Shown here piece by piece: positions 445 through 53,495 of a stretch of 64,000 nt of DNA (the first letter of the stretch is position 1; every line of letters begins with the position of its first letter). The DNA is taken from NCBI GenBank assembly GCA_964016885.1, contig OZ024748.1, forward strand, positions 29,884,001-29,948,000, given 5' to 3'. The DNA is from Eledone cirrhosa (taxonomy: Eukaryota). The translations under genes and the position numbers were made by a program. The notes beneath the pieces are model-generated. The model did no database searches. It was not told where the DNA came from and saw only the letters and a list, made by a program, of their open reading frames with translations.

Positions 445-3400
445 GAGAATTAAGTCATCAAGAAAAACATAAGCGTAACCTAATACAAGAAATAACTAAG
501 ATCACCACACCAAGAGAAAAACTAGTATTTATAAGCCTTATACGTCCCGAAGAACAGTACATTGATCAAGAATGTGATAAGCACTTTAACAAGAAACTAA
601 AGTGGCTTGAGTAGATAAAACTAAATCAGGATACTGTAGAGAATACCAATAGATATCCCGACAAAATTGACGGTATAAATATGGCCGACACCTCATTAAC
701 AGATGAGTTCAACAACAACAACAACAACACAAATATACACGGCAACACGGCAATAGATCCTGATGAATTATCTGTATTACAACTTCCACCTAAGTATGCG
801 ACATTCAAGAAGGTAAATATGATTAGTTGTCTGTCAGAAATAGAAAAATCATTTACAAAATTACGTTGGCGCCTCAAAAACAAAAACAAAAGTAACAACA
901 TACGCACACACATATACAACACACATCCCAACAACAACAGACACACAGACACAAACAACAATAACAACAACACACACACCAACAATAATAACATACTCAG
1001 AAACAACAACAGACACGCAGACACAAACAACAATAACAACACACACAACAACAATAACACACACGGAGACAACAACAACAACACACATCAACAACAGCAC
1101 ACATCAACAACAACACACACACATTCAATGCCTCTCACCACCACCACAATCTTAACAAACACACAGACACAGAAAACAAGTAATGACAGTAGCACAGAAA
1201 TCACAGAAATAAGGGAAAGTAATAGGATTAAAAAGAGAAGGGAGACTATGGACAAAGAAAATAACCAAGACGAACACACAGACACACAAAATAGAGTAGA
1301 TAATAACAATGAGCCAGTGGAAAGAGACAGGAGTAATAATGAGAGACATAGAAACAACCATGAGGCTGTTGGTGGAAATAGAAATAGAAACAACACAACT
1401 AACAATAACAATAGCACTAGTACACATAAAGCAGCAGCCTGGAACTCTACTTTTTATAATCCCTCCGATAAGTCGTTCGACCTACGACGAGTCCACGCCA
1501 CGACTTTACCATTTAACAAACGCACGCAATTGCCGTCGCAGGTCGATGAACAAACAGAAGCACAATTTAGTATAGCTAGATCCGAACTTAGAAATATTAT
1601 AGAACAGTATAGCAAGAAGCATAATAGAATGGAGGCCCAGCAACTGGGAGAAAAATCTGCAAATGGCTTGCGTAAACTCATGCAGCGCTCGCGTAATGGA
1701 GAGATAGCATGCTTTCCAACAGACAAGTCTGGAAGAATGTCGGTTGACAGCCTGCCAAACTACATCCAGGCAATGCAACCCCACATCACTAACACAAGAG
1801 AGGTAACACCACAGGATCATGAGGATAGAGAAAAAGCCCTCAATGCCCATATGGTGATGTGGACGAATATAATGCAGCCCAACAAAAGGACTGCCAACAA
1901 CTTCCAGGCCTGGAACAATGACGTGCCGGCGTTGTATGGGCTTCGAAAAGACCATAAAACGGGCAGTGACCCTGTCACGGGACCACCAACACGGCCAGTC
2001 TGTGGAGCTAACATTGCTAGTAACTACATACGCCCCATCATTGAAATGTCCCCAGATGTATATGACAGCACGGAGGACCTCCTCAGCAGAATCGACGAGA
2101 GTAACCGATCTAGGGACCTAACAAACTGCATAATAGGTAGTATGGATGTTGTGTCCCTGTATCCATCTATTGAGGTGGATTTTGCTGTGGAGAAATGCGT
2201 AGAAATGATCAGTGAGAGCAATGTTGAGTTCCGTGGGATTGATACCAGTGAGCTGGGACTCCTACTTAATACCTATAGTAATAATTACCTAGACACATAT
2301 GACCTTAGCAACCTGTGACCTACAAGACCAGCAAGAGGCAGACCACCTACCATTACCTCAATGGCCAAGAAAACCCACACAGATAGATGGAACGGGTGGA
2401 CCAGAGCCATACGGACACCCGAAAACCACGATGAACTGAAGAAAATGATTGCACATGCGGTAGGGGCCAGCATAAAACTAACCCATAAGGAACATATGTT
2501 CAAATTTAATGGAAAAACATATGCCCAAGAGGAAGGAGCAGCCATTGGTGTTAGCATTGCAGGCGACATAGCTAACTTATTCATGGTATGGTGGGACAGT
2601 AGACTTAAACTTAAACTTAAAAAACAATTAGAAGACCCCTTAACCCTGATAATGTACTCCCGCTACGTTGATGATATAAACATCGTAGTTAAGACACCCC
2701 CACTAGAGAACAGTCAGGAGCTAGAGAAAAACACAATGGAAAGCATCCAGCAAATAGCTAACTCCATCCACCAGAGTATTAGAGTTACTATAGACTACCC
2801 AAGTAAACACCCCAACCATCGATTACCTGTACTAGACACAGAGCTCTGGTTAGATACCATTAATAACAAAAAACAAATCCTCCATTCCCATTATGCCAAA
2901 CCCATGACTTCCAAACATCTGATCCACCGAAACTCGGCCGTTTCGGACCATACCAAAATCAACATACTGATTGCGGATTTGGTACGGGTGATGAGAAACG
3001 TGTCCCGCATGTGCAACCCCGAAGAACTAGAGAGACACATACAACACTTCATTCACCGTATGCAGTTCTCTGGTTACAATCAGAGAGATAGAATCAGAGT
3101 GTATAGAGGAGCCAGAACCAAATGGGAAAAAATGGTAAATAATGACACAAATGGGACCTGCCCCTTGTATAGGAGTAAATTTTGGAATAGAATAGAAAGA
3201 ACTAGGAATAAGGCTAATAGAATAAACTCATGGTATGATAGCAATAAATACCAGATTGTAATGTTTATCGATACAACCCCTAGAGGTGAATTAGCTTACA
3301 GATTTAGAAGGGCCCTAGATAAACATAAACTCAATATTAAGATAGTAGAAAGGCCAGGTACCTCCGTAAAAACACTTATTAGCAAGACATACTCCTTTCA

Positions 3401-3801
3401 AAGACCCCCCCCCCCACCTGTATAGATAAGAAATGTATAACCTGTAAAATAAGCCCCCATATTAACTGTAAAACTAGAAATGTAGTATATAGCATAAGAT
3501 GTACTGAAGGACAATGTAGAGACAAAAATATAGTGTACATAGGTGAGACAGCTCGTAGTGTAGGGGAACGGATAAATGAACACTGGCGAGACCTTCAAGA
3601 TAGTAAAGAATCATCTGTACTCTACCAACATGCTAAAATAGAACATAGGGTAAATTAGAGAACATAGAAATGAAAATAGAATCTACACACAGAAAAGACG
3701 CAATGTTTAGAGAAATCACAGAGGCAATAAACATAAAAGAATTACAACCAAAATTAAATAGAAAATATGAGTGGAACAGCAACATCACAACTTACAATTA
3801 A
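445..3801 (+). pseudogene. Disrupted PLE RT/GIY-YIG polyprotein ORF (pieces 445-614, 681-2318, 2361-3425 and a frameshifted endonuclease to TAA 3799-3801)
   Basis: TAG at 612-614, in-frame deletion after NIASNY versus family B, TGA at 2316-2318 where copy 2 has TGC, poly-C expansion near 3405-3415 and a further frameshift near 3648. Confidence 0.88.
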
Positions 3802-4002
3802 GGACAAAATGAAAACACACACGCACATAGAACAAACAACCAACCGGTAACATGTAAATAAACAAATAAATAAACGAATATAAACTCACACAGACACCCG
3901 GATGTGGCGCATGCGCAGACTGAGCACACAACACACACACAGAAACAAAATGGTGTAGGACAGAACAAAGGAGAGGAACAAAAACAAAGAAAAGAATCCC
4001 CA

Positions 4003-4045
4003 GTCACTGAAGAGGTCACAGAATGTGTGACGAAAGAACTTTGAC
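4003..4045 (+). ncRNA. Minimal type I hammerhead ribozyme (PLE family A)
   Basis: GUCA-CUGAAGA-G-GUCACA(GAAUG)UGUGAC-GAAAG(AA)CUU-UGAC: stem I GUCA/UGAC, 6-bp stem II, 2-bp stem III. Confidence 0.78.
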
Positions 4046-4266
4046 AATATATAAACAACTATCTGGTTGTGGAACCAACCAACCAACCAACCAGAAATTT
4101 ATAAATTCCTAAATTTATAAATTTATTATAATGAATTGAAGTGAAAGCAACTGGTGCGTGTGTTTCTTATTGGCAACATGACCCTCCCAAAGTATAACAA
4201 TATATATATATATATATATATATCAAAATGAAAACCCGAAGGTAAGATAAAATTCCAATCATTTAA

Positions 4267-5899: not shown

Positions 5900-7041
5900 G
5901 AGTGATGAAGAATGTGTCCAGCATGTGCGACCCAACAGAAATGGAAAGACACATCCAACACTTCATCAACCGCATGCAGTTCTCTGGCTACAACCAAAGA
6001 GACAGAGTCAGAGTATACGAAGGAGCCATGGAAAAGTATAAGACCCTCATAGAACTGGACATGAAAGGAATTTGCCCATTATACAGGAGCAAATCATGGA
6101 ATAGCTTAGATAGGGCTAGACATAAGATAGGGAAGGCCACATCATGGTACGACAACCAGAGTGTCATGTTTGTGGACGCCTCCACTGGAGGGAAATTAGC
6201 TAACCAGTGTAGAAAGGCCCTGAGAAAGACCCACTTAAAAATAAAGGTGGTAGAAAAGCCAGGAACCACCATAAAATCCCTGATCAGCAAAACCTACCCT
6301 TTTAAGAAAACCCACTGTACCAATAGGAAATGTATCATATGTAAGGTGAACCCCCGGATAAACTGTAAAACTAGAAACGTAGTCTATAGCATAAGATGTA
6401 CAGAGGGTACTTGCAGAAACATGACAACAACATACATAGGTGAAACAGCTCGTAGCATAGGTGAAAGGATAGACCAACACTGGGGGGAACTAAAAGGACG
6501 AAAAAACGGGTCAGTACTATACGAACATGCTAGACAACAACATGACGGTAACATAGACAACATAGAAATTAGAATAATATCTAAACATAAGAATGACCCA
6601 GCAGATAGGCAAATCAGAGAGGCCAGTGAAATAGAAATTAGAAGACCAAAGCTAAACAGAAAGAATGAGTGGAACAACAACAACACCCAAACAAACAACA
6701 CTGACCTAAGAGAAGTATAAATAAATAAAATAAAATAAAATAAAATAAGATAAATAAATACATACACAAGCACAATAACAACAAGCACATAAACACACAC
6801 TAGTCACCCAGCAGACACAACACTATACACACTAGTCACACAGCACACATAACACTATACACACGCAAACGCATGCGCAAAGAAGACAAAATAAAATAAA
6901 CAAACAAGCAAATAAATAAATAAATATATAGACAGACTGAATAAAAAATGGCGTAGACATACAACACAACAGGAGGAAAAAATATAACACCACTGACGAT
7001 GTTGCAGATGTGCAACGAAAGATTTATGTAAATTATGTAAA
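5897..7041 (+). repeat. 5' pseudo-LTR of PLE family B (copy of 9771-10917)
   Basis: ORF 5800..6720 reproduces the C-terminus of ORF 8123..10594 with only two amino-acid differences (T/P, K/R). Confidence 0.95.
6991..7028 (+). ncRNA. Minimal type I HHR (PLE family B, 5' pseudo-LTR)
   Basis: CA-CUGACGA-U-GUUGCA(GAUG)UGCAAC-GAAAG(AU)UUA-UG; perfect 6-bp stem II, only 2-bp stem I. Confidence 0.62.
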
Positions 7042-7050
7042 TTATGTAAA

Positions 7051-8178
7051 ATTCATCGCCGCTATGGCATTAGCTTGTGCCAAGCTGAAAGGTTATTGAA
7101 AGACACTGTTTTCTGTTATATAAAAACTACAATAACAACAGAACAAATCCGCTTCTTAAAACACTGTGTTTCCTCCAAAACATACACAACAAACATATCA
7201 AAACAAGTAAATAATTTATTATTGAACAAAACACAAGCCGAACGGCTAAAACACACAATAACAGTTAATATGAAAAGAACAACATGCACAAAAGTTAACG
7301 CACTCTACAGACAGAAACGCATCAACGGTAAGGAAATCCGAAATCTCATCACAGCAAACGAGAGAGATGACTTCATGAGCGTCATCCGACGCGAAACGAA
7401 ATACGCTCGAAACGAATGCTATAGGCATTTCAAGAAGAAATTAGAATGGATGAATAAGAAAAAACTACAAGAAAGGAAAATCGAATATTCTCAAAAATAC
7501 CCAGATAACATCAACAATATCCGTATGACTGATGTAAAACTACCGGAAGAATTTACCAATGACCACACAGTAAATATCTATGGGAACACTTTAATCAGTG
7601 AACAAGAACAACAAATCCTACGGTTACCACCAAAATTTGCCATCTACAAAAAGATTAACCCTATGGAATGCAAAACGGAGCTGGAAAAGTGTTTCACAAA
7701 AATACGTTGGAATGCAAAGGTAAACAACAACAACAATAATAACGGTAGTAGTAATATAAACAATAACTCTGGGTATAGAAATAACAGCCATAACCATAAC
7801 AATGGCAGGAAAGTGAGAAATAGTGATAATGGCAATAATACTAGCGATAGACGGAACAACAACAACCACAATAATAATAATAATAGAAACGTTAACCACA
7901 GACACAGCAACAGTGACCACAGTAGTAATAACGGTAACAATACGAACAACAACAACAATAACCACAGTGGTAATAATGGAAATAGTACATGTAGCAACAT
8001 CAACAAAAACAAGAAACATAAGAGTAACAACCACAATGGTAGAAATAACAGTAACAACAACAACAATAACGGTGAAGTAAACAACAATACATCTAGCAAT
8101 CATAACAATAATAATAAGGCTAATGATAGAAACAACAACAACCACCCCGATAACAACAATAGCAACACACAACTATGA
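7051..8178 (+). CDS. PLE family B polyprotein, N-terminal part with long Asn-rich insert (start codon deleted in this copy)
   Basis: Aligns with family A (HFKKKLEW/HFNKKLKW, LPPKFA/LPPKYA, FTKIRW/FTKLRW); ends at TGA in +1 overlap with the RT ORF. Confidence 0.8.
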   Translation: MHRRYGISLCQAERLLKDTVFCYIKTTITTEQIRFLKHCVSSKTYTTNISKQVNNLLLNKTQAERLKHTITVNMKRTTCTKVNALYRQKRINGKEIRNLITANERDDFMSVIRRETKYARNECYRHFKKKLEWMNKKKLQERKIEYSQKYPDNINNIRMTDVKLPEEFTNDHTVNIYGNTLISEQEQQILRLPPKFAIYKKINPMECKTELEKCFTKIRWNAKVNNNNNNNGSSNINNNSGYRNNSHNHNNGRKVRNSDNGNNTSDRRNNNNHNNNNNRNVNHRHSNSDHSSNNGNNTNNNNNNHSGNNGNSTCSNINKNKKHKSNNHNGRNNSNNNNNNGEVNNNTSSNHNNNNKANDRNNNNHPDNNNSNTQL

Positions 8179-10594
8179 CGATAGATATAATGACAACCCC
8201 TTAGAGAAACTATTTTTCAACCCAGCTGACAAAACATATAAGATGGGTAATATCTATCCTACGAGGTTACCCTTTAATAAAAGAGTTTGCATACCACAGA
8301 AAATAGATGATGAGACGGAGGCACAGTTCACCATAGCTAGAAATAAGATTAGACAAGTAGTAGACAGGTATACTAAGAGACAGAGCAGACCAGAGGCCCA
8401 ACAACTTGGGGGGAAACCTGTAGAAGGCTTGGTTAGCCTCAAGCAGCGCACAAGGGATGGTGAGGTAGTGTGTCTACCCACAGATAAGTCTGGTAGGATG
8501 TCAATAGATAGCATGCCGAACTATATCGAGGCTATGCAACCCCACATCACCAACACGAGCGAAGTTGTACAACAAACACACGATGGGAGAGAAAAAATCC
8601 TCAACGCTCACATGATGATGTGGACTGACATCCTAAAGCCAAGCAGATGCACTGCCAACAACTTCCAGGCGTCTAACAATGGCATACCACCCTTGTATGG
8701 GCTCCGCAAAGACTACAAGACAGTCGACGACCCGACAACAGGACCACCAACAAGACCCGTATGCGGAGCTAATATAGCTAGCAACTACAGGATCTCCTAC
8801 TTCCTCTCAATGGTTATACGCCCCATAATCAAGATGTCCCCAGATGTATGTGAAAGTACAGAGGACCTCCTCAGCAGAATCAGTGAGTGCAACAAAAACA
8901 GGAGCCTATCCAACTGCATAATAGGCAGCATGGATGTGGTGTCACTGTACCCATCCATTAACATTGATTTTGCTGTGAAAAGATGTGTGGAGATGATCAT
9001 TGAGAGTGAGGTGGAGTTCTGCGACGTCGACACAGACGAACTGGGCCTCCTACTTAGACTTACCTACGACACTGACTACCTAGACAGCCATGACCTTAGA
9101 TGTTTCTGCCCTAGTAGACCTATAAGAGGTAGACCCCCCACCATAACCTCAATGGCAAAAAAGACTCCCATGGGAAGGTGGATTGGGTGGACCAAAGCTA
9201 TACGGACCCCCCAAAACACTGATCAGGTAAGAAAAATGGTCGCACATGCAATAGGGGCTAGTATCAAAACTACCCTAAAGGGCCACATATTTAAGTTCAA
9301 TGAGAAAATCTACACCCAAAATGAGGGAGCAGCCATCGGCGTCAGCATAGCTGGTGATGTTGCCAACCTTTTCATGGTATGGTGGGAAAGGAGACTTAAA
9401 GATCTCCTTAATGAAAGCTCCATAGACCTCATCATGTACTCTCGTTATGTAGACGATATCAATATAGTTATAAGAACACCCCCACTAGAGAGCACTAACA
9501 AGTTTGATTTAGAACGTAGCACGATGGAAAGCATCCAGCAGATAGCTAATTCCATACACCAGAGTATAACTGTAACTATCGACTTCCCTTCCAAACACCC
9601 TAACAATAGACTACCTGTATTAGACACAGAACTCTGGATTAACACTATAGACGAGAGAGCCCAAATTCTCCACTCACACTATGCTAAACCCATGGCCTCC
9701 AAATACCTGATACTCAAAAACTCAGCAATGTCCAGTAGTGCTAAGTTTAATATTCTGATCGCAGATTTGGTACGAGTGATGAAGAATGTGTCCAGCATGT
9801 GCGACCCAACAGAAATGGAAAGACACATCCAACACTTCATCAACCGCATGCAGTTCTCTGGCTACAACCAAAGAGACAGAGTCAGAGTATACGAAGGAGC
9901 CATGGAAAAGTATAAGACCCTCATAGAACTGGACATGAAAGGAATTTGCCCATTATACAGGAGCAAATCATGGAATAGCTTAGATAGGGCTAGACATAAG
10001 ATAGGGAAGGCCACATCATGGTACGACAACCAGAGTGTCATGTTTGTGGACGCCTCCCCTGGAGGGAAATTAGCTAACCAGTGTAGAAAGGCCCTGAGAA
10101 AGACCCACTTAAAAATAAAGGTGGTAGAAAAGCCAGGAACCACCATAAAATCCCTGATCAGCAAAACCTACCCTTTTAAGAAAACCCACTGTACCAATAG
10201 GAAATGTATCATATGTAAGGTGAACCCCCGGATAAACTGTAAAACTAGAAACGTAGTCTATAGCATAAGATGTACAGAGGGTACTTGCAGAAACATGACA
10301 ACAACATACATAGGTGAGACAGCTCGTAGCATAGGTGAAAGGATAGACCAACACTGGGGGGAACTAAAAGGACGAAAAAACGGGTCAGTACTATACGAAC
10401 ATGCTAGACAACAACATGACGGTAACATAGACAACATAGAAATTAGAATAATATCTAAACATAGGAATGACCCAGCAGATAGGCAAATCAGAGAGGCCAG
10501 TGAAATAGAAATTAGAAGACCAAAGCTAAACAGAAAGAATGAGTGGAACAACAACAACACCCAAACAAACAACACTGACCTAAGAGAAGTATAA
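8123..10594 (+). CDS. PLE reverse transcriptase plus GIY-YIG endonuclease (uninterrupted, 823 codons)
   Basis: PTDKSG, LYGLRKD, RPVCG, GSMDVVSLYPSI, GAAIG, YSRYVDD, LPVLD, CX4CX2C linker, VVY...YIGETARSIGER, C-terminal PKLN. Confidence 0.95.
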   Translation: MIETTTTTPITTIATHNYDDRYNDNPLEKLFFNPADKTYKMGNIYPTRLPFNKRVCIPQKIDDETEAQFTIARNKIRQVVDRYTKRQSRPEAQQLGGKPVEGLVSLKQRTRDGEVVCLPTDKSGRMSIDSMPNYIEAMQPHITNTSEVVQQTHDGREKILNAHMMMWTDILKPSRCTANNFQASNNGIPPLYGLRKDYKTVDDPTTGPPTRPVCGANIASNYRISYFLSMVIRPIIKMSPDVCESTEDLLSRISECNKNRSLSNCIIGSMDVVSLYPSINIDFAVKRCVEMIIESEVEFCDVDTDELGLLLRLTYDTDYLDSHDLRCFCPSRPIRGRPPTITSMAKKTPMGRWIGWTKAIRTPQNTDQVRKMVAHAIGASIKTTLKGHIFKFNEKIYTQNEGAAIGVSIAGDVANLFMVWWERRLKDLLNESSIDLIMYSRYVDDINIVIRTPPLESTNKFDLERSTMESIQQIANSIHQSITVTIDFPSKHPNNRLPVLDTELWINTIDERAQILHSHYAKPMASKYLILKNSAMSSSAKFNILIADLVRVMKNVSSMCDPTEMERHIQHFINRMQFSGYNQRDRVRVYEGAMEKYKTLIELDMKGICPLYRSKSWNSLDRARHKIGKATSWYDNQSVMFVDASPGGKLANQCRKALRKTHLKIKVVEKPGTTIKSLISKTYPFKKTHCTNRKCIICKVNPRINCKTRNVVYSIRCTEGTCRNMTTTYIGETARSIGERIDQHWGELKGRKNGSVLYEHARQQHDGNIDNIEIRIISKHRNDPADRQIREASEIEIRRPKLNRKNEWNNNNTQTNNTDLREV

Positions 10595-10866
10595 ATAAAT
10601 AAAATAAAATAAAATAAAATAAGATAAATAAATACATACACAAGCACAATAACAACAAGCACATAAACACACACTAGTCACCCAGCAGACACAACACTAT
10701 ACACACTAGTCACACAGCACACATAACACTATACACACACGCAAACGCATGCGCAAAGAAGACAAAATAAAATAAACAAACAAGCAAATAAATAAATAAA
10801 TATATAGACAGACTGAATAAAAAATGGCGTAGACATACAACACAACAGGAGGAAAAAATATAACAC

Positions 10867-10904
10867 CACTGACGATGTTGCAGATGTGCAACGAAAGATT
10901 TATG
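10867..10904 (+). ncRNA. Minimal type I HHR (PLE family B, 3' pseudo-LTR)
   Basis: Identical to 6991-7028. Confidence 0.62.
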
Positions 10905-11014
10905 TAAATTATGTAAACTATATATATGTGTTTGTGTCTATATTGTATCTGTATCATTTTTGACCGTCGGTCAGTCAATGGCAACATTGAGGACCGAGTA
11001 AGTTAGATCGCAGA

Positions 11015-12200: not shown

Positions 12201-12689
12201 ATATAAACATATATACACACCGACCTATTTTGGATAAGGTAATCCAGAAAAAAAGGAAAAACATTAAAAAGCGATTGGCTGGTCACGACTAGAATGTCTT
12301 TAATGTCTGCTCTATCAGGGCTGATATGTGCTTAAACAACAATCACAACATCAATAGTAACATGCTGCTACTCGGCCCAAAGGGATAGTATAGACTTTAT
12401 AATTACATCTACTTACAGCAACATCCTGTTTTAAAACAATGTTGCTATTGTTCTTGTTTTTATTGTGGTTATTGTCATTGGTGTTGAAGTTGCTGTTATG
12501 TTGATGTTGTTTTTGTTGTTACTGTTGCTGTTATTTTTATCCAGTCCATTCACCTTTAAAACATTGTTAAAGCCACACGTGTCTGTGTATCAGCCGCAGG
12601 CGCGTTAATATCTCCAACAAGATGTTGTTCAAACAACTGGAACACTCATCGTCGGAAACGACGGAGGTCCAACTAGAAGAGCCAGAACA

Positions 12690-14718
12690 TCAACCACAAC
12701 AACAATAACCGGAACATCAACCACAACAACAACTACAACCTCCACACACTTAACTTCAATCACAACTGCAAAAACAACCACTACAATCACAACACTAACA
12801 ATACCAGAGAAGCAACAACAACAAACACAACAACAACAAAAACACTATCACCAGAACACAACCGCAACAACAACCACAGCATCAACAACAACAACAACAA
12901 ACACAACAACCACCACAACCACACCAGGAACAACAGCAACCACAACAACCACCACAACCACAACATCAAGAACAACAACAACCACAACAACGACCAAAAC
13001 AACAACAACAACCACAACAACCAGAACAACCACAACAACAACAACAACAACCACAACAACGACAAAAACAACAACAACAACCACACCAACGACCAAAACA
13101 ACACCAACAACAACAACCACACCAACGACCAAAACAACAACAACAACAACCACACCAACGACCAAAGCAACACCAACAACAACAACAACCACACCAACGA
13201 CCAAAACAACAACAACAAAAACAACAATCACACCAACGACCAAAACAACACCAACAACAACAACAACCACACCAACGACCAAAACAACAATAACAACACC
13301 CACACCAACGACCAAAACAACAACAACAACAACCACACCAACTACCAAAACAACACCAACAACAACAACCACACCAACGACCAAAACAACACCAACAACA
13401 ACAACCACACCAACGACCAAAACAACGCCAACAACAACAACCACACCAACGACCAAAACAACACCAACAACAACAACCACACCAACGACCAAAACTACAA
13501 CAACAACAACAACCACATCAACGACCAAAACAACACCAACAACAACAACCACACCAACGACCAAAACAACACCAACAACAACAACCACACCAACGACCAA
13601 AACAACACCAACAACAACAACCACACCAACGACCAAAACTACAACAACAACAACAACCACACCAACGACCAAAACAACACCAACAACAACAACCACACCA
13701 ACGACCAAAACAACACCAACTACAACAACAACCACACCGACGACCAAAACAACAACAACAACAACCACACCGACGACCAAAACAACACCAACTACAACAA
13801 CAACCACACCAACGACCAAAACAACAACAACAACCACACCAACGACCAAAACAACGCCAACAACAACAACCACACCAACGACCAAAACAACACCAACAAC
13901 AACAACCACACCAACGACCAAAACTACAACAACAACAACAACAACCACACCAACGACCAAAACAACACCAACAACCACACCAACGACCAAAACAACACCA
14001 ACTACAACAACAACCACACCGACGACCAAAACAACACCAACTACAACAACAACCACACCAACGACCAAAACAACAACAACAACAACAACCACACCGACGA
14101 CCAAAACAACACCAACTACAACAACAACCACACCAACGACCAAAACAACACCAACAATAACAACAACCACACCGACGACCAAAACAACAACAACAACAAC
14201 AACCACACCGACGACCAAAACAACAACAACAACAACCCCACCAACGACTATAACAAACACAACAGCCACAACAACAGCAATCACCTCAACAACTAGAACA
14301 ACAATAACAATAACAAAAACCACCTGAACACTAGCAATAAACGACAACCAATGTAACCAGAATCACACATACAACATCAACTACAACCAAATCATAAACA
14401 CCGACAACCACAACCACAACCACAACCAAAACAACGACAACAACCACAACCACAACAACAACAACCACAACAACCACAACATCTACAAAAACCACAACAA
14501 CAAAGGCATTCATAATAACAACCATAACCACAACAACAACAACCAAAACAATCAAACCCATAACAACAATCCCAACACCACAACAACCACAGCGACAACT
14601 GCAACAACAGCAACAACAAAAATCCCGACGACCACAACCACAACAACCACAAGAACAAGAACAACAACTATAACTACAACAATCACAACAACCACAACAA
14701 CAACCACAACAACAACCT
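12690..14718. repeat. (ACA/ACC)n-derived minisatellite, core ACCACACCAACGACCAAAACAACACCAACAACAACA
   Basis: About 27-39 bp units in the core (about 13070-14250) grading into degenerate trinucleotide flanks. Confidence 0.9.
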
Positions 14719-23391: not shown

Positions 23392-23543
<152 letters not shown>

Positions 23544-23571
23544 TATCAGTGTTCTGAAATAGCGATGTATG

Positions 23572-23886
23572 TATGAATGAATGTATAGTGTATTTGATAA
23601 TATACTGTATGTTTATTTAAAAACATTTTGAAGACCATTCGCTATGAGTTTTAAAGTAGTGACTTGTCACTTACTTAGTCTTGGCAAAATAAAGGGAAGC
23701 AATCGACAGCTGTTTCTCGTTTGTTAACGGTTAACAAACGAGAAACAGCTGTCGATTGCTTCCCTTTATTTTGCCAAGACTAAGTAAGTGACAAGTCACT
23801 ACTTTAAAACTCATAGCGAATGGTCTTCAAAATGTTTTTAAATAAACATACAATATATTATCAAATACACTATACATTCATTCATA
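23572..23886. repeat. Near-perfect palindrome, 157-bp arms, 1-nt centre at 23729
   Basis: Arms checked base by base at the ends and centre, one mismatch seen; contains the HHR 3' half GAAAC-AGCU-GUC at 23742-23753. Confidence 0.95.
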
Positions 23887-23995
23887 TATATATATATATA
23901 TGTTGGAAAAGTAAATAACAACAACAAGAAGTACAGTTACGAAAGGTGTTAGGTATTAGGTTCACGCTTGAGAGTGGGGGGTGGGGTGGGGCCCA

Positions 23996-24590
<595 letters not shown>

Positions 24591-24606
24591 ATATATATAT
24601 ATATAT

Positions 24607-25738
24607 ATATGAGAGACGTAAAATAAGAAAATTATAAAATTAACTTACTTACTAAAATATCACTTCCAACTAATTAGTTTCTGGAATGGAGTAAATATAT
24701 TTTCCGAAGAAGATATAGAGAAACATTCCGCCGTCAGGGAAGTCTATTCTCAGCTAAGTTTCCAGGCAAAGCGAGGACTCTGGAAACTTATTAAAAAATA
24801 ATTCAGTGGATAGGAAATAGCAAAGCGTGGACTGAATTCCTAGCCATTGAGAAAATCACTGCCTCTGCGTCTGTGGCAAATTCAAAAAGAATCAATCACG
24901 TGACATCGAGGTCAATCAGTGGAAAGTGGTTTGTTAAGAAGACGGCGGCCTGCCTGCTACCATAGCAGCAGTCATGGCCAATATTGCTCGACAAATAATT
25001 TGGAGATAATTATAAAGAATTAATATCTAGTAACATTTATATACATACAGATGCATATCAATGCTAGCAAATATATAGGTTTTGTCTTAGTAACATTGTG
25101 GTTCAATGTATGGGGTTGCAGAACAATAATATGTTACTAAGACAAAACCTATATATTTGCTAGCATTGATATGCATCTGTATGTATATATATGTTACTAG
25201 ATATTAATTCTTTATAATTATCTCCAAATTATTTGTCGAGCAATATTGGCCATGACTGCTGCTATGGTAGTAGGCAGGCCGCTGTCTTATTAGCAAACCA
25301 CTTTCCACTGATTGACCTCGATGTCACGTGATTGATTCTTTTTGAATTTGTCACAGACGCAGAGGCAGTGATTTTCTCAATGGCTAGGAATTCAGTCCAC
25401 GCTTTGCTATTTCCTATCCACTGAATTATTTTTTAATAAGTTTCCAGAGTCCTCGCTTTGCCTGGAAACTTAGCTGAGAATAGATTTCCCTGACGGCGGA
25501 ATGTTTCTCTATATCTTCTTCGGAAAATATATTTACTCCATTCCAGAAACTAATTAGTTGGAAGTGATATTTTAGTAAGTAAGTTAATTTTATAATTTTC
25601 TTATTTTACGTCTCTCATATTATTGTTCTGCAACCCCATGCATTGAACCACAATGTTACTAAGACAAAACCTATATATTTGCTAGCATTGATATGCATCT
25701 GTATGTATATATATGTTACTAGATATTAATTCTTTATA
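24607..25738. mobile_element. Non-autonomous 522-bp HHR-bearing unit: one full inverted copy plus about 1.16 tandem copies
   Basis: TGTTACTAAGAC recurs at 25132 and 25654 (period 522); 24609-25133 is one complete permuted unit on the minus strand; both outer ends run into (TA)n. Confidence 0.85.
25484..25565 (+). ncRNA. Type I HHR (A9G variant); mirror copy at 24662-24743 minus
   Basis: A(U/C)UUCC-CUGACGG-C-GGAAUG...CAUUCC-A-GAAAC(UAAUUA)GUU-GGAAGU; 6-bp stems I and II, palindromic loop III. Confidence 0.7.
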
Positions 25739-25746
25739 TATATATG

Positions 25747-25778
<32 letters not shown>

Positions 25779-25779
<1 letters not shown>

Positions 25780-26125
25780 TGTTATACTTGGGGAGGGTCA
25801 TCTTGTTGTAATAATTGTTTCTACTTTTGGCACAAGGCCAGCAATTATCCAGTGCATTACTGGTACTTTATTTTATCGACCCCGTAAGGATGAAAGGCAA
25901 AGTTAACCTCGGCGGGATTTGAACTCAAACCATAAAGGGGCGTAACTCTTTGCTGCAAAGCATAGCGTCAGACCCTCTACCGATACTGCCAATCCACCTG
26001 TAATAATATTGCCAGAAATAATAGCAGGACACACTCACTGTTTGGTTGGTTTTCACTTTTGTATCTTTCATATCTCCATAGTTAATTTATTTGGCAATCA
26101 ATGTTAAAAAATACAAATATAAATA
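25779..26125 (-). mobile_element. PLE family B tail relic interrupted by a SINE (about 25811-25999)
   Basis: Reverse complement of the 10930-11117 region; SINE flanked by TGTAATAAT duplication at 25807 and 25999. Confidence 0.8.
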
Positions 26126-32042: not shown

Positions 32043-32247
32043 CGTTTCTGAATTTATTTAGCAAGATTCTTTATCTGAAATCGTGTGTTGAAACCGATAT
32101 TGTTATACTTTGGGAGGGACATGTTGCCAATAAGAAACACACGCACCAGTTGCTTTCACTTCAATTTATTATATATTTATAAATTTATAAATTTATAAAT
32201 TTCTGGTTGGTTGGTTGGTTCCACAACCAGATAGTTGTTTATATATA

Positions 32248-32290
32248 CTCATAGTTCTTTCGTCACACACTGTGTGACCTCTTCAGTGAC
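32248..32290 (-). ncRNA. Minimal type I HHR (PLE family A)
   Basis: Mirror of 35670-35714 with a shorter stem I. Confidence 0.72.
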
Positions 32291-32562
32291 TGGGGATTCC
32301 TTTCTTTGTTTCTGTGCTTCTCCTTTGTTCTGTCCTACGCCATTTTGTTTCTGTGTGTGTGTTGTGTGCTCAGTCTGCGCATGCGCCACATCCGAGTGTC
32401 TGTGTGAGTTTATATTCGTTTATTTATTTGTTTATTTACATGTTACCGGTTGGTTGTTTGTTCTATGTGCGTGTGTGTTTTCATTTTGTCCTTAATTGTA
32501 AGTTGTGATGTTGCTGTTCCACTCATATTTTCTATTTAATTTTGGTTGTAATTCATTTATGT

Positions 32563-33654
32563 TTATTGCCTCTGTGATTTGTGTGTAGATTCTATTTTTA
32601 TTTCTATGTTCTCTAATTTACCCTTGTGTTCTATCTTAGCATGTTGGTAGAGTACAGATGATTCTTTACTATCTTGAAGGTCTCGCCACTGTTCATTTAT
32701 CCGTTCCCCTACACTACGAGCTGTCTCACCTATGTACACTATATTTTTGTCTCTACATTGTCCTTCAGTACATCTTATGCTATACACTACATTTCTAGTT
32801 TTACAGTTAATATGGGGGCTTATTTTACAGGTTATACATTTCTTATCTATACATGAGGGTCTTTGAAAAGGGTATGTCTTGCTAATAAGTGTTTTTACGG
32901 AGGTACCTGGTCTTTCTACTATCTTAATATTGAGTTTATGTTTATTTAGGGCCCTTCTAAATTTGTAAGCTAATTCACCTCTAGGGGTTGTATTGATGAA
33001 CATTACACTCTGATATTTATTGCTATCATACCATGAGTTTATTCTATTAGCCTTGTTCCTAGTTCTTTCTATTCCATTCCAAAATTTGCTCCTATACAAG
33101 GGGCAGGTCCCATTTATGTCATTATTTACCATTTTTTCCCATTTGGTTCTGGCTCCTCTATACACTCTGATTTTATCTCTCTGATTGTAGCCAAAGAACT
33201 GCATACGGTGGATGAAGTGTTGTATGTGTCTCTCTAGTTCTTCGAGGTTGCACATGCGGGACACATTTCTCATCACCCGTACCAAATCCGCAATCAGTAT
33301 GTTGATTTTGGTATGGTCCGAAATGGCCGAGTTTCGGTGGATCAGATGTTTGGAAGTCATGGGTTTGGCATAATGGGAATGGAGGATTTGTTTTTTGTTG
33401 TTAATGGTATCTAACCAGAGCTCTGTGTCTAGTACAGGTAATCGATGGTTGGGGTGTTTACTTGGGTAGTCTATAGTAACTCTAATGCTCTGGTGGATGG
33501 AGTTTGCTATTTGCTGGATGCTTTCCATTGTGTTTTTCTCTAGTTCCTGACTGTTTTCTAGTGGGGGTGTCTTAACTATGATGTTTATATCATCTACGTA
33601 GCGGGAGTACATTATCAGGGTTAAGGGGTCTTCTAATTGTTCTTTAAGTTTAAG
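32563..33654 (-). pseudogene. Inverted partial PLE RT C-terminus plus GIY-YIG
   Basis: Near-identical to 34285-35469 with a short frameshifting deletion near 32580. Confidence 0.88.
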
Positions 33655-33655
33655 A

Positions 33656-35469
33656 CTGTCCTACTTCCTCTCCCTGATCATACGCCCCATCATTGAAATG
33701 TCCCCAGATGTATGTGACAGCACGGAGGACCTCCTCAGCAGAATCGGCGTGAGTAACCGATCCGGGGACCTAACAAACTGCATAATAGGCAGTATGGATG
33801 TTGTGTCCCTGTATCCATCTATTGACGTGGATTTTGCTGTGGAGAAATGCGTAGAAATGATCAGTGAGAGCAAGGTTGAGTTCCGTGGGATTGATACCAG
33901 TGAGCTGGGACTCCTACTTAAGCTTACCTATAGTAATAGTTACCTAGACACATATGACCTTAGCAACCTGTGCCCTACAAGACCAGCAAGAGGCAGACCA
34001 CCTACCATTACCTCAATGGCCAAGAAAACCCACACAGATAGATGGAACGGGTGGACCAGAGCCATACGGACACCCGAAAACCACGACGAACTGAAGAAAA
34101 TGATTGCACATGCGGTAGGGGCCAGCATAAAACTAACCCTTAAGGAACATATGTTCAAATTTAATGGAAAAACATATGCCCAAGAGGGTTAGTATTGCAG
34201 GCGACATAGCTAACAGCCATTGGTGTTAGTATTGCAGGCGACATAGCTAACTTATTCATGGTATGGTGGGATAGTAGACTTAAACTTAAACTTAAAGAAC
34301 AATTAGAAGACCCCTTAACCCTGATAATGTACTCCCGCTACGTAGATGATATAAACATCATAGTTAAGACACCCCCACTAGAAAACAGTCAGGAACTAGA
34401 GAAAAACACAATGGAAAGCATCCAGCAAATAGCAAACTCCATCCACCAGAGCATTAGAGTTACTATAGACTACCCAAGTAAACACCCCAACCATCGATTA
34501 CCTGTACTAGACACAGAGCTCTGGTTAGATACCATTAACAACAAAAAACAAATCCTCCATTCCCATTATGCCAAACCCATGACTTCCAAACATCTGATCC
34601 ACCGAAACTCGGCCATTTCGGACCATACCAAAATCAACATACTGATTGCGGATTTGGTACGGGTGATGAGAAATGTGTCCCGCATGTGCAACCTCGAAGA
34701 ACTAGAGAGACACATACAACACTTCATCCACCGTATGCAGTTCTTTGGCTACAATCAGAGAGATAAAATCAGAGTGTATAGAGGAGCCAGAACCAAATGG
34801 GAAAAAATGGTAAATAATGACATAAATGGGACCTGCCCCTTGTATAGGAGCAAATTTTGGAATGGAATAGAAAGAACTAGGAACAAGGCTAATAGAATAA
34901 ACTCATGGTATGATAGCAATAAATATCAGAGTGTAATGTTCATCAATACAACCCCTAGAGGTGAATTAGCTTACAAATTTAGAAGGGCCCTAAATAAACA
35001 TAAACTCAATATTAAGATAGTAGAAAGACCAGGTACCTCCGTAAAAACACTTATTAGCAAGACATACCCTTTTCAAAGACCCTCATGTATAGATAAGAAA
35101 TGTATAACCTGTAAAATAAGCCCCCATATTAACTGTAAAACTAGAAATGTAGTGTATAGCATAAGATGTACTGAAGGACAATGTAGAGACAAAAATATAG
35201 TGTACATAGGTGAGACAGCTCGTAGTGTAGGGGAACGGATAAATGAACACTGGCGAGACCTTCAAGATAATAAAGAATCATCTGTACTCTACCAACATGC
35301 TAAGATAGAACACAAGGGTAAATTAGAGAACATAGAAATAAAAATAGAATCTACACACAGAAAAGACGCAATGTTTAGACAAATTACAGAGGCAATAAAC
35401 ATAAAAGAATTACAACCAAAATTAAATAGAAAATATGAGTGGAACAGCAACATCACAACTTACAATTAA
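33656..35469 (+). pseudogene. 5'-truncated PLE RT/GIY-YIG ORF broken by a short internal duplication near 34188-34215
   Basis: GSMDVVSLYPSI, YSRYVDD, CIDKKCITC, YIGET; GTTAGTATTGCAGGCGACATAGCTAAC occurs twice. Confidence 0.88.
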
Positions 35470-35669
35470 GGACAAAATGAAAACACACACACACATAGAA
35501 CAAACAACCAACCAGTAACATGTAAATAAACAAATAAATAAATGAACATAAACACACACAGACACCCGGATGTGGCGCATGCGCAGACTGAGCACACAAC
35601 ACACACACAGAAACAAAATGGCGTAGGACAGAACAAAGGAGATGCACAGAAACAAAGAAAGGAATCCCC

Positions 35670-35714
35670 AGTCACTGAAGAGGTCACAGAGTGTGTGACG
35701 AAAGAACTATGACT
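35670..35714 (+). ncRNA. Minimal type I HHR (PLE family A)
   Basis: AGUCA-CUGAAGA-G-GUCACA(GAGUG)UGUGAC-GAAAG(AA)CUA-UGACU; 5-bp stem I. Confidence 0.8.
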
Positions 35715-36039
35715 ATATATAAACAACTATCTGGTTGTGGAACCAACCAACCAACCAGAAATTTATAAATTTATAAATTTATAAATATATAATAAATTGA
35801 AGTGAAAGCAACTGCTGCGTGTGTTTTTCCTATTGGCAACATGACCCTCCCAAAGTATAACAATATATATATATATTATAGGGTAAAATGACAGGAGGCC
35901 CAACCACCAGCACTATTCAACATCAAAGAGTTGCATAACGTCGAGTGCTTTCATAATATTACATCATGATTTACTTGGAGGAAAGACCAATTCTACCCAG
36001 TGGTGAACCACCAACTTACCAGAGCGAAAATGAAACAAT

Positions 36040-44644: not shown

Positions 44645-44774
44645 GATAGTGGTGATGGTAGTGATGGTGGTGATGGTGGTGATGGAGGTGATGGTAACGA
44701 TGGTAGATTACACAAAACATTTTAGCTGACATAAACCACAAGCCTATATATCAGTTATTGGATACTTTTCTACA

Positions 44775-45329
44775 TAATATCATATCTCCTATATTCCTAC
44801 ATGATATCATAGTTCCTATATTCCTACATGATATCATAGTTCCTATATTGCTACATGATAACATCATAGTTCCTATATTGCTACATGATAACATCATAGT
44901 TCCTATATTGCTACATGATATCATAGTTCCTATATTCCTACATGATATCATAGTTCCTATATTCCTACATGATATCATAGTTTCTATATTCCTACATGAT
45001 ATTATAGTTCCTATATTGCTACATGATAACATCATAGTTCCTATATTGCTACATGATATCATAGTTCCTATATTCCTACATGATATCATAGTTCCTATAT
45101 TGCTACATATCATAGTTCCTATATTCCTACATGATATCATAGTTCCTATATTGCTACATGATATCATCATAGTTCCTATATTGCTACATGATATCATAGT
45201 TCCTATATTCCTACATGATATCATAGTTCCTATATTGCTACATGATATCATAGTTCCTATATTCCTACATGATATCATAGTTCCTATATTGCTACATGAT
45301 ATCATCATAGTTTCTATATTGCTACATGA
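44775..45329. repeat. 24-30 bp minisatellite
   Basis: ATATCATAGTTCCTATATT(C/G)CTACATG repeated. Confidence 0.95.
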
Positions 45330-45689
45330 TGTAAAGATAGAATTTGTTATGTGGCTGTTCCGTTTATATAGCAGACGAATAGTTAATGTTGAGGAACATA
45401 CAGGTAATAACTGTGGTGGTGGTGGGGATGATGCATGGAGGGGGTGATTGCAGGTGGTGCAGCTAATGATGAAGTAGAGATGGTGGTGGTGGTGGTGGTG
45501 ATAGTGTGTGGGGGTGATTATGGTGGGGTTTGTGGAGGTGGTTGAGCTGGTTGTGATGTTGATGATACTGATGATGGTAGTTGTGTTGATGGTGATGCTG
45601 ATGGTATTGATGATTGTGGCTGTTGTGTTTGTGGTGTGATAGTGGTGATGGTGGTGATGGTGGCAACTGTGGCGATGAGGGTAGTGATA

Positions 45690-46385
45690 ATGGTGATGGT
45701 GGTGATTGTAGGGATGATGGTGAAGGCGGTGGTGATGGTGGTGATTGTAGGGATGATGGTGAAGGCGGTGGTGATGGTGGTGATTGTAGGGATGATGGTG
45801 AAGGCGGTGGTGATGGTGGTGATGGTGGTGATTGTAGGGATGATGGTGAAGGCGGTGGTGATGGTGGTGATGGTGGTGATTGTAGGGATGATGGTGAAGG
45901 CGGTGGTGATGGTGGTGATTGTAGGGATGATGGTGAAGGCGGTGGTGATGGTGGTGATTGTAGGGATGATGGTGAAGGCGGTGGTGATGGTGGTGATTGT
46001 AGGGATGATGGTGAAGGCGGTGGTGATGGTGGTGATGGTGGTGATTGTAGGGATGATGGTGAAGGCGGTGGTGATGGTGGTGATGGTGGTGATTGTAGGG
46101 ATGATGGTGAAGGCGGTGGTGATGGTGGTGATTGTAGGGATGATGGTGAAGGCGGTGGTGATGGTGGTGATTGGAGCGATGAGGGTGAAGGCGGTGGTGA
46201 TGGTGGTGATTGTAGGGATGATGGTGAAGGCGGTGGTGATGGTGGTGATGGTGGTGATTGGAGCGATGATGGTGAAGGCGGTGGTGATGGTGGTGATGGT
46301 GGTGATTGTAGGGATGATGGTGAAGGCGGTGGTGATGGTGGTGATTGTAGGGATGATGGTGAAGGCGGTGGTGATGGTGGTGGCG
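45690..46385. repeat. 39/48-bp minisatellite within (GGT/GAT)n
   Basis: GGTGGTGATTGTAGGGATGATGGTGAAGGCGGTGGTGAT repeated. Confidence 0.95.
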
Positions 46386-49260: not shown

Positions 49261-49761
49261 CACACCTGTAAATGAGTTACAATGATTCGCTGACTTTTTC
49301 ATAAACGTAGACCAGGGACTCGATCCTATTTGATAGTTAAAATGTTAAAAAAAAAATTATTTTTAAGTTTTATAAGATCTTTTAAGGTTGTAAAGGGTTT
49401 TGAAAGGTTTTAGAAGTTTTTTTTAAAGATTTTAAAAAAAGATTTTTTATCAAATATATATATGCACACATATACATGCTTACAATCAACCCCCCCCCCC
49501 CCCACCACCATACACACACTCAGTATATACATATTTACACACTATTGATGGCCGTTGACTCTTATGGGTTAATCCGCCCTTTGTCAGGTTTTGTTTTTCG
49601 TCTCGCAGGATGCCCAAAATTACCCTCCTCACCAAGCAAGCTTGATAGAGCTGCCGGTTTAGTCGCCGACGACCCAACCATGCGACAATTTGTACTGGGT
49701 TACATGTTTTCCTGTAGCACTCAAGAGCAACCTGAGCATACATACATACATGCAAGATAAA

Positions 49762-50790
49762 AAAAAATGGACCAATGTGCATGGGTACGTGAGACGAAAA
49801 ACACAGACCATAGAGGGGATAAATCATTCAAAAAGCCTCGCAGGGAGTTCCGACAAGTTTATGACATCCCACGTTGAAGGATATCTCTATGCAATACAGG
49901 AACAAGAAATCCCTACCAAATATCTGCTACACAAAAGAGGAGGGCCATCAGTCGATAATAAATGTAGGCTTTGTAAAACAAGGATCGAAGATGTTAGCCA
50001 CATTGTTGCCAACTGCGAAAGAATGTCGTCTCGTTACTACCTCCCTATGAGGCACGATGGGATAGCTAGAACCATCTGGAACGCACTTAGGAAAACAAAA
50101 TTAAAAACAAATGAGGAGGAATATGTTGAGATAGATGGTACTAAGGAATACTGGTGGATCTTGAAAATAAAAATTGCCACCAAATTAAAGCACAACCGGC
50201 CTGATATTGTTGTTTGGGACCACACAGTGAAAACGTGCTCTGCTGTAGAGATCAGGTGCTCACTTGATGTCAACGTTGTAAGACAAATATAAGAGAAGGA
50301 GGACATCTACGGACCATTGATGAAGAGTTTGCAGATCCTGTATCCAAGATACACGTTCAGCTTCATACCCATCCTTCCCGCTTGGACCAAAGTATAATTG
50401 AATTTGGATTTGTGGACAAAGAGCGCAGCTCCTTAATTCATAGACTACAAATGGCTGTGATAGCTGGCACCTTCAAAATTTGCGAAACATTCTTGCGATT
50501 CAAGGGATGACAATTTCTTTTCTTTTACAACCTTGCCACCAAGAAGGTGGCCTTTCACAAATGTACTCGAAATTAAGAGAAAGAGAAACATACATACATT
50601 TACTAATGAGAAATCTGCAGATACTCCACCCTGACTATACCTTCAGATTTATACCTGTGATTATTGGGGTACTTGGATATGTTAGTAACTGCCTCAGTAT
50701 AAATCTTGAGAAGCTGGGCTTCACAGAAACAGAAAGAACACAACTAGTTAGGAAATGACAAGTACAATCCATTAATGTAACAGTAAAAAT
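49762..50790 (+). mobile_element. R4/Dong-type non-LTR 3' fragments (CCHC plus restriction-like endonuclease), C-terminus duplicated
   Basis: AIQEQ, CRLC...HIVANC, RHD, HNRPDIVV, VEI; the LQILYP/LQILHP block occurs twice. Confidence 0.82.

Positions 50791-52672: not shown

Positions 52673-53495
<823 letters not shown>

What the first reader, a model, noticed from the sequence alone, without database searches (positions are those of the whole stretch)
24607..25738. 522-bp ribozyme-carrying non-coding unit integrated like a miniature Penelope element
Seen: an exact 522-bp period, one complete permuted unit on the minus strand joined through an ATG microhomology to about 1.16 units on the plus strand, both outer ends fused to (TA)n, no ORF in the track, and one type I HHR per unit (6-bp stems I and II, palindromic loop III, core CUGACGG). 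Known: metazoan non-LTR retrozymes are short HHR-bearing tandem units proposed to move via circular RNA and PLE enzymes. Inference: a non-autonomous retrozyme-like parasite copied from a circular or multimeric RNA by the resident PLE RT/GIY-YIG, since it shares their target and two-headed geometry.
Basis: partly seen in the sequence, partly recalled or inferred. Interest (0 to 1): 0.75.

Follow-up and report, generated by a model that had tools for sequence, protein, structure and literature searches.

The report
Hammerhead repeat riding Penelope retrotransposons
This is one of thousands of copies of a 522-base non-coding repeat with a predicted self-cutting RNA motif; its back-to-back insertions almost always end at one of each of two fixed sites, as do the genome's coding Penelope-type retrotransposons, so it likely borrows their enzymes: a new example of a known kind (animal retrozymes).

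Summary
In detail: 522-bp period, a 527-nt minus arm joined through ATG to a 608-nt plus arm, TA runs outside, no ORF, one type I hammerhead per unit. A 28-mer of the unit has 2,919 exact genome matches; hammerhead stem II and two tail hairpins are conserved by compensatory change or stem conservation across subfamilies. Ends are not freely permuted: outer ends sit at unit positions 490 and 86, and 28 of 31 position-sampled two-headed insertions have one of each, as do 7 of 7 classifiable copies of a coding Penelope-like element (PLE). No copy serves as a pLTR. A circle is not shown: 66 of 75 arms cross a cut site without pile-up, and this locus's arms differ at family-polymorphic sites; some insertions pair two different RNAs. 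The G9 core is private to this locus (family: A9). The helper PLE is unresolved (two chimeras, two families). Verdict: new member of the non-LTR retrozymes, likely PLE-mobilised. The scan has noted this kind at least 20 times, probably this family too.

The parts
24607..25133 (-). Minus arm, one unit plus 5 nt (unit 486 to 490); outer end at priming site 1 (unit 490)
25131..25738 (+). Plus arm, 608 nt (unit 1-522 then 1-86); outer end at priming site 2 (unit 86)
25131..25133 (.). Head-to-head junction, 3-nt ATG microhomology (19 of 34 junctions in the sample overlap by 1-9 nt)
25484..25565 (+). Type I hammerhead, core 25490-25496 with private G9, predicted cut after 25559; U-G wobble in stem I
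24662..24743 (-). Type I hammerhead of the minus arm, same private G9 (24731), predicted cut between 24668 and 24667
25621..25738 (+). 118-nt 'tail' between site 1 and site 2; folds better than shuffles (z -2.4; -3.4 and -3.3 in older subfamilies)
25625..25648 (+). Small hairpin just after site 1: stems fixed, 6-nt loop and 2-nt bulge variable; 10,313 genome matches to the motif
25675..25726 (+). Long hairpin just before site 2, with compensatory changes (241 of 252 copies 6/6 paired at the top)
24587..24606 (.). Left (TA)n run, about 20 nt
25739..25778 (.). Right imperfect (TA)n run, about 40 nt
24442..24597 (.). Left flank: mirror duplicate of 24286-24441 (a PLE tail plus microsatellite); context, not part of the unit
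25779..25805 (-). Right flank: short site-1 end of a PLE-type repeat whose TA run is the likely target; context

Best explanation
The unit is a multicopy non-coding repeat with a conserved hammerhead fold and two fixed outer ends, and it is likely a non-autonomous passenger (non-LTR retrozyme) that a TA-targeting Penelope-like RT/GIY-YIG protein copies into the genome. Shown from sequence: copy number, no ORF, covarying hammerhead and tail hairpins, ends at 490 and 86 joined to TA, one of each in two-headed copies, variable inner ends joined by microhomology. Inferred: the endonuclease cuts both strands in TA-rich DNA; one DNA end primes reverse transcription at site 1, the other at site 2, positioned by the tail hairpins; both cDNAs run through mostly uncut hammerheads for a fraction of a unit to over ten units and are joined at their 5' ends. 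Template: most likely uncut multimeric transcript(s), with the two ends able to use different molecules (my odds 55%), against a monomer circle for most insertions (35%). The hammerhead would act on the RNA pool (dimer-dependent, slow), not define insertion ends; this copy's G9 is likely a damaging private change (effect of A9 recalled, not tested).
For: 2,070 first-look candidates, best 40 at 94-100% identity; 2,919 exact 28-mers. Position-sampled insertions on C1 (58 of 63 blocks held the 28-mer; one long array left out): 31 two-headed, 28 with 490+86, none 490+490 although the sampling favours it; 27 single, 17 at 490, 9 at 86. 86 of 93 such ends run into TA. An older 571-nt subfamily keeps both ends; 6 of 6 resolved two-headed copies have one of each. 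Coding PLE family B (44,127 candidates, best 100 at 96-100% aa identity) has two ends about 60 nt apart, both at ATAT, and 7 of 7 classifiable two-headed copies have one of each. Stem II: five fully paired variants, 150 of 171 motifs 6/6 paired; 97.5% of cells paired, 36 double changes, 0 of 500 shuffles (related sequences, so not a probability). Sense fusions to coding PLEs: family B through a 5-nt microhomology at site 2 (L101) and family E (L179). Published mechanism: two internal RT start sites bounding the tail, both strands cut and extended, uncut RNA as substrate (PMC11167929).
Against: No sequence homology to pLTRs or tails of PLE families A, B or E, so no parent or helper is identified. 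Only two chimeras with coding PLEs among roughly 130 lineage insertions looked at, each explainable by nested insertion plus deletion. No RNA run of this organism on record; expression and cleavage untested. 3 of 31 two-headed copies break the rule. 28 of 35 two-headed loci have arms of one haplotype, and the 12-unit C5 array is 0.4-0.5% divergent inside versus 1.1-1.3% to its nearest other locus, which fits a circle as well. Family B's tail is not more structured than shuffles (z 0.06).
Confidence: 0.85

Rival explanations
1. Same helper enzymes, but the template is a single self-cleaved, ligated 522-nt circle copied round and round from both DNA ends.
For: 66 of 75 arms cross a cut site and arrays reach 11-16 units; arms and passes usually share a haplotype (28 of 35); both arms here share private G9; the minus arm stops one turn from its start; circles are shown for coral, mussel and axolotl retrozymes (PMC7229834).
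Against: 5 of 35 two-headed loci have 3 or more family-shared differences between arms (this locus 5, L019 9), and 8 of 65 adjacent passes do; two insertions have heads from different repeat families (L101, L104); no excess of arms of exactly one unit. Gene conversion could mimic some of these differences. This rival differs from the best reading only in the template; its confidence is conditional on PLE mobilisation.
Confidence: 0.35
2. The unit is the pseudo-LTR of a coding PLE, and the copies are 5'-truncated remnants.
For: Same two-ended, TA-joined geometry as coding PLEs; vertebrate retrozymes are often homologous to pLTRs (24 of 57 Xenopus families, 10.64898/2026.07.22.740005).
Against: Upstream of the hammerhead the sequence always continues as the previous unit; downstream of site 2 it continues as unit 87-353. 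No ORF runs into or out of it in pLTR fashion in 58 position-sampled insertions, the best-hit loci, 20 old-subfamily loci or 20 further lineage sites; nearby PLE ORFs have their own hammerheads. Flanks were 1.5-3.5 kb and the sample is a few percent of copies.
Confidence: 0.05
3. A satellite or fold-back DNA repeat spread by recombination and repair, with the hammerhead incidental.
For: Some long tandem arrays with higher-order patterns (L099); 5 perfect fold-back junctions among 23 simple pairs; a mirror duplication in the left flank.
Against: Dispersed short copies with fixed 3' and variable 5' ends in one polarity, the one-of-each rule, and covariation in RNA stems are not expected from DNA recombination.
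Confidence: 0.05
4. Self-cleaved linear monomers or short multimers are the template, so 5' ends are set by the hammerhead cut.
For: Several best-hit copies start at unit 426-463; 5' ends are mildly enriched across the hammerhead region (345-462: 34 observed, 23.2 expected, p 0.006, window chosen after looking).
Against: At 430-465 only 11 observed versus 7.9 expected (p 0.16); 66 of 75 arms read through. The broad excess fits RT stalling at structure.
Confidence: 0.1

Closest known systems
Metazoan non-LTR retrozymes (Cervera and de la Pena 2020, PMC7229834; Li, Clavereau and Pollet 2026, 10.64898/2026.07.22.740005)
   Same: Non-coding, low-GC tandem unit with one type I hammerhead each, monomers to long arrays, co-occurring with PLEs; 522 nt lies within the 51-972 bp range of the preprint.
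   Different: Hammerhead has a 35-nt structured loop II and a 10-nt palindromic stem III; most copies are short two-headed insertions with two fixed ends; no pLTR parent found; circular RNA not tested.
EN+ Penelope-like elements, insertion structure and mechanism (Craig et al. 2021, PMC8557442; Frangieh et al. 2024, PMC11167929)
   Same: Partial tandems, inverted 5'-truncated head, tail at one end only, two internal start sites, TA/AT-rich targets, hammerhead upstream of the start sites.
   Different: No RT or endonuclease; tail 118 nt rather than 30-40; start sites contain ATAT matching the target, whereas the anole PLE primes without homology.
Non-autonomous Chlamys PLEs such as MRC1 (PMC8557442, passage)
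   Same: Non-coding PLE passengers with pLTRs and head-to-tail multicopy insertions.
   Different: Those resemble their autonomous families at the 3' end and mostly lack hammerheads; this unit has a hammerhead and no detected homology to a coding family.
PLE hammerheads (Cervera and de la Pena 2014, PMC4209133)
   Same: Type I, 6-bp helix II with an extra base after position 9, palindromic helix III suited to dimer formation (-11.4 kcal/mol).
   Different: Much larger loop II with its own covarying helix; sits in a protein-free unit.

Membership tests
Non-LTR retrozyme | Type I hammerhead in each repeat unit | tested here: met
   Motif in both arms; covariation; A9 in 165 of 167 cores (overlapping array loci partly counted twice). 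Rfam gives no hit.
Non-LTR retrozyme | Tandem units, at least two consecutive with complete hammerheads | tested here: met
   Family: arrays of about 7, 11 and 16 units. This locus alone has one hammerhead per arm, so it is not an 'active' dimer by the preprint's rule.
Non-LTR retrozyme | No coding capacity; no LTR-type layout | tested here: met
   Longest Met-ORF 27 codons; tandem layout. PBS and PPT were not searched for separately.
Non-LTR retrozyme | Multicopy and dispersed | tested here: met
   2,919 exact 28-mers; 10,313 lineage hairpin motifs.
Non-LTR retrozyme | Self-cleavage in vitro | not testable with these tools
   Needs bench work; 8 of 9 Xenopus elements did not cleave in the preprint.
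Non-LTR retrozyme | Expressed as monomeric linear and circular RNA | tested here: inconclusive
   No RNA-labelled run of this organism; X5 (kind unknown) holds a contig that wraps by 522, which tandem DNA also gives.
Non-LTR retrozyme | Homology to the pLTR of a resident PLE (preprint; 24 of 57 families) | tested here: not met
   No significant match to families A, B, E; other PLE families not screened. Not a universal feature of the family.
Autonomous EN+ PLE or its pLTR | RT plus GIY-YIG ORF contiguous with the repeat | tested here: not met
   two sense fusions are one-off chimeras with 5'-truncated coding copies (L101, L179).
PLE-type insertion | Two fixed 3' ends bounding a tail, variable 5' ends, inverted head | tested here: met
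   parallel in coding family B.
PLE-type insertion | TA/AT-rich target | tested here: met
   86 of 93 outer ends. Target duplications unreadable in TA.
   By eye, window PLEs A and B have a CX4CX2C linker and CCHH residues, Neptune/Nematis-type by PMC8557442, though with an RW motif and DKS; no tree built; true Hydra elements were not searched for.

The most novel reading that the evidence does not exclude
In PLE integration the two cut DNA ends are hard-wired to different start sites and can load different RNAs: the one-of-each rule holds in the passenger (28 of 31), its older subfamily (6 of 6), a coding PLE (7 of 7) and even when the two heads come from different families (2 of 2). This retrozyme lineage would then be a helper-promiscuous RNA parasite that is recognised by its own tail hairpins rather than by pLTR homology, and a minimal 118-nt substrate for dissecting a dimeric, asymmetric PLE reverse transcriptase.
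Probability: 0.4. Interest if true: 0.7.

Novelty: new member of a known kind. Interest (0 to 1): 0.45.

Why it matters
How animal retrozymes move is proposed but, by the 2026 preprint's own words, unresolved. This family gives genomic footprints that tie a retrozyme to PLE-type two-site priming, a short structured RNA (tail plus two hairpins) to test with purified PLE protein, and natural cases that separate 'one circle' from 'two templates'. The class itself is known, so the value is mechanistic testability rather than a new kind of element.

Tried and rejected
(1) '(TA)n is made during insertion at a bare ATAT site': paralogs suggested an empty site with only ATA (9 of 9; 1,177 exact copies; 0 with a TA run up to about 40 nt). 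Rejected: the left flank is a 98% mirror copy of the neighbouring tail and the right flank is a different short PLE end, so they are not one split copy. One other locus (L041) shows long TA runs where paralogs have a short one; too little to claim. (2) 5' ends at the hammerhead cut: not significant. (3) Rfam at gathering and E up to 10: no hammerhead; only hairpin and microsatellite noise. (4) Parent or helper PLE by homology: none for A, B, E. (5) Reads: TA repeats were skipped, so no empty allele could be seen; three RNA runs of other or unclear origin held nothing useful (0, 1 and 0 contigs); small-share runs are no evidence. (6) PDB search of PLE protein P0001: only E 0.05-0.17 RT matches. 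(7) RNAalifold on alignment A1 missed stems I and II because of gaps and one fold-back row; one search used a structure off by one column, corrected. (8) Sequence look-up in earlier findings returned nothing. Literature searches listed no paper on cephalopod retrozymes or on the one-of-each rule as a count; the library is partial, and the preprint's supplements were not seen and may list related families.

Full report
Scope and coordinates. The window is G000:C8:29884001-29948000 of a 3.0-Gb animal genome; that it is octopus-like is my recollection from a SINE and the wording of earlier notes, not a test. Unit position 1 = window 25131. 'Site 1' = unit 490, 'site 2' = unit 86.

Observation. 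The 522-bp period, the two arms (24607-25133 minus, 25131-25738 plus), the ATG overlap, the TA runs and the lack of an ORF are all as described. Each arm holds a type I hammerhead with 6-bp stems I and II, a C.A mismatch after the core, a 35-nt loop II and a palindromic stem III. Rfam does not detect it and its folding energy is not unusual; the evidence is the motif plus covariation: five fully paired stem II variants, 150 of 171 motifs 6/6 paired, and in an 18-row alignment 97.5% of cells paired with 36 double changes, including a helix inside loop II. The core is CUGACGA or CUGAUGA in 141 of 167 copies; G9 occurs only in this locus's two arms and in at most 5 of 362 reads of another individual.

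Family. The unit gave 2,070 candidates, the best 40 at 94-100%; a 28-mer has 2,919 exact matches; a lineage-wide hairpin motif has 10,313. Subfamilies range from about 1-2% to about 30% divergent, with an older 571-nt unit. I fetched the first 100 positional matches on C1 as a sample unbiased for length: 58 of 63 blocks held the 28-mer, and one array of about 16 units was left out of the end counts.

Ends. Outer ends are fixed. Of 31 two-headed insertions 28 have one end at 490 and one at 86; the exceptions are 86+86, 490+104 and 509+135; none is 490+490, which the sampling would favour. Of 27 single arms 17 end at 490, 9 at 86, 1 elsewhere. 86 of 93 such ends run into TA. Inner ends are scattered; 19 of 34 junctions overlap by 1-9 nt, 7 are blunt, 8 have extra bases. 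The older subfamily has the same two ends, 6 of 6 resolved pairs one of each (loci chosen by similarity). The 118-nt tail between the sites folds better than shuffles in three subfamilies, with a small hairpin after site 1 whose loop varies while its stems do not and a long hairpin before site 2 with compensatory changes, 241 of 252 copies fully paired at the top.

Coding PLEs. The window holds two RT plus GIY-YIG families, A (6997-10594) and B (e.g. 33958-35880), with their own hammerheads. B is young and abundant (44,127 candidates; open frames to 1,261 aa), has two ends about 60 nt apart at ATAT, and 7 of 7 classifiable two-headed copies have one of each, an eighth having one unclassed end. 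This matches the two internal start sites that bound the tail of the anole PLE, which cuts and extends both strands and uses uncut RNA (PMC11167929, parts 1-2 of 4 read), and the 'tail at one end only' of PMC8557442 (passages and the Hydra section read). The unit has no significant homology to A, B or a third TA-ending family E, and never stood in pLTR position. Two sense fusions exist: the unit's site 2 joined to a truncated B ORF through a 5-nt microhomology (L101) and an older-subfamily arm joined to a truncated pLTR of E (L179). They suggest template switching but do not single out a helper.

Template. 66 of 75 simple arms cross at least one predicted cut site; 5' ends show no significant step there (11 versus 7.9 expected, p 0.16) and a mild excess over the whole hammerhead (34 versus 23.2, p 0.006, window chosen afterwards). 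That excludes cut monomers as the main template and leaves uncut multimers or circles. For a circle: 28 of 35 two-headed loci have arms with 0-1 family-shared differences, long arrays are homogeneous, and both arms here share G9. Against one circle per insertion: 5 of 35 loci have 3 or more such differences (this locus 5 of its 8; L019 9), 8 of 65 adjacent passes do (chance per change about 0.09), and in L101 and L104 one head is a different 413-nt hammerhead repeat (family C) ending at its site 2 while the other outer end is a site 1 of B or of this unit. Gene conversion or nested insertion with deletion could explain single cases. I therefore favour uncut multimeric RNA with independent loading at the two ends, modestly.

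A lead that failed. The flanks first looked like one PLE pLTR split at a bare ATAT, implying TA runs made during insertion. The left flank proved to be a mirror copy of its neighbour and the right flank a different element, so the target was likely an existing TA run.

Expression. No RNA-labelled run of this organism was available; results were uninformative.

Comparison and novelty. The family meets the sequence-level definition of non-LTR retrozymes (PMC7229834, passages; preprint 10.64898/2026.07.22.740005, parts 1-3 of 5, supplements not seen); cleavage and circles are untested. Its hammerhead resembles PLE hammerheads (PMC4209133, passages). A recent octopus repeat annotation does not contain the word ribozyme (PMC13282606, term search and passages). 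Six searches listed no paper describing this family or counting the one-of-each rule; coverage is partial. The scan has at least 20 notes on this kind in at least 4 genomes, one probably on this family; I had the two-end reading before looking. Verdict: new member of a known kind, interest 0.45; the cross-family end rule is the part worth a bench test.

Noticed in passing
window 6997-10918 and 2303-4200, 32101-35862: Coding PLE families A and B (RT plus GIY-YIG, CX4CX2C linker, asparagine-rich insert), with partial tandems and a two-headed B insertion; both start their ORF with MTLPKY across priming site 1.
   Followed up: partly
window 52680-53360; L104 1996-2722: Family C: a second non-coding hammerhead repeat, period 413 nt, ends at two sites about 57 nt apart; forms mixed two-headed insertions with the unit (L104) and with PLE B (L101).
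   Followed up: partly
window 23541-23893: 164-bp perfect fold-back of a third TA-flanked element, cut inside a hammerhead-like half (GAAA, 6-nt palindrome, GUC).
   Followed up: no
window 24286-24597: 156-bp mirror duplication of a PLE tail and compound microsatellite beside the insertion; such mirrors started at the TA run in 3 of 165 flanks tested.
   Followed up: partly
L179 1095-6431 (C1:49.26 Mb): Family E: C-rich coding PLE of another type with its own hammerhead; 20 of 20 fetched copies end at one fixed site into TA; this copy is fused behind a unit arm.
   Followed up: partly
L099-L100 (C1:94.67 Mb), L103 (C5:11.37 Mb): Long arrays: about 16 older units with recurring unit types suggesting later tandem duplication, and a very homogeneous 11-unit young arm.
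   Followed up: partly
L051, L064, window: Unit ends often abut PLE pLTR or tail sequence; in L064 the end at unit 104 is fused straight into a PLE tail without TA.
   Followed up: no
L041: TA runs of 120 and 192 nt flank the insertion where 6 paralogous empty sites have only a short imperfect TA stretch; possible TA growth at or after insertion.
   Followed up: partly
window 12687-14717, 44770-46382: Long CAA/CAC-rich and 27/39-bp minisatellite arrays.
   Followed up: no
window 61975-62793, 49663-50292: ORFs with a zinc knuckle and a zf-RVT domain, likely LINE or LTR remnants.
   Followed up: no
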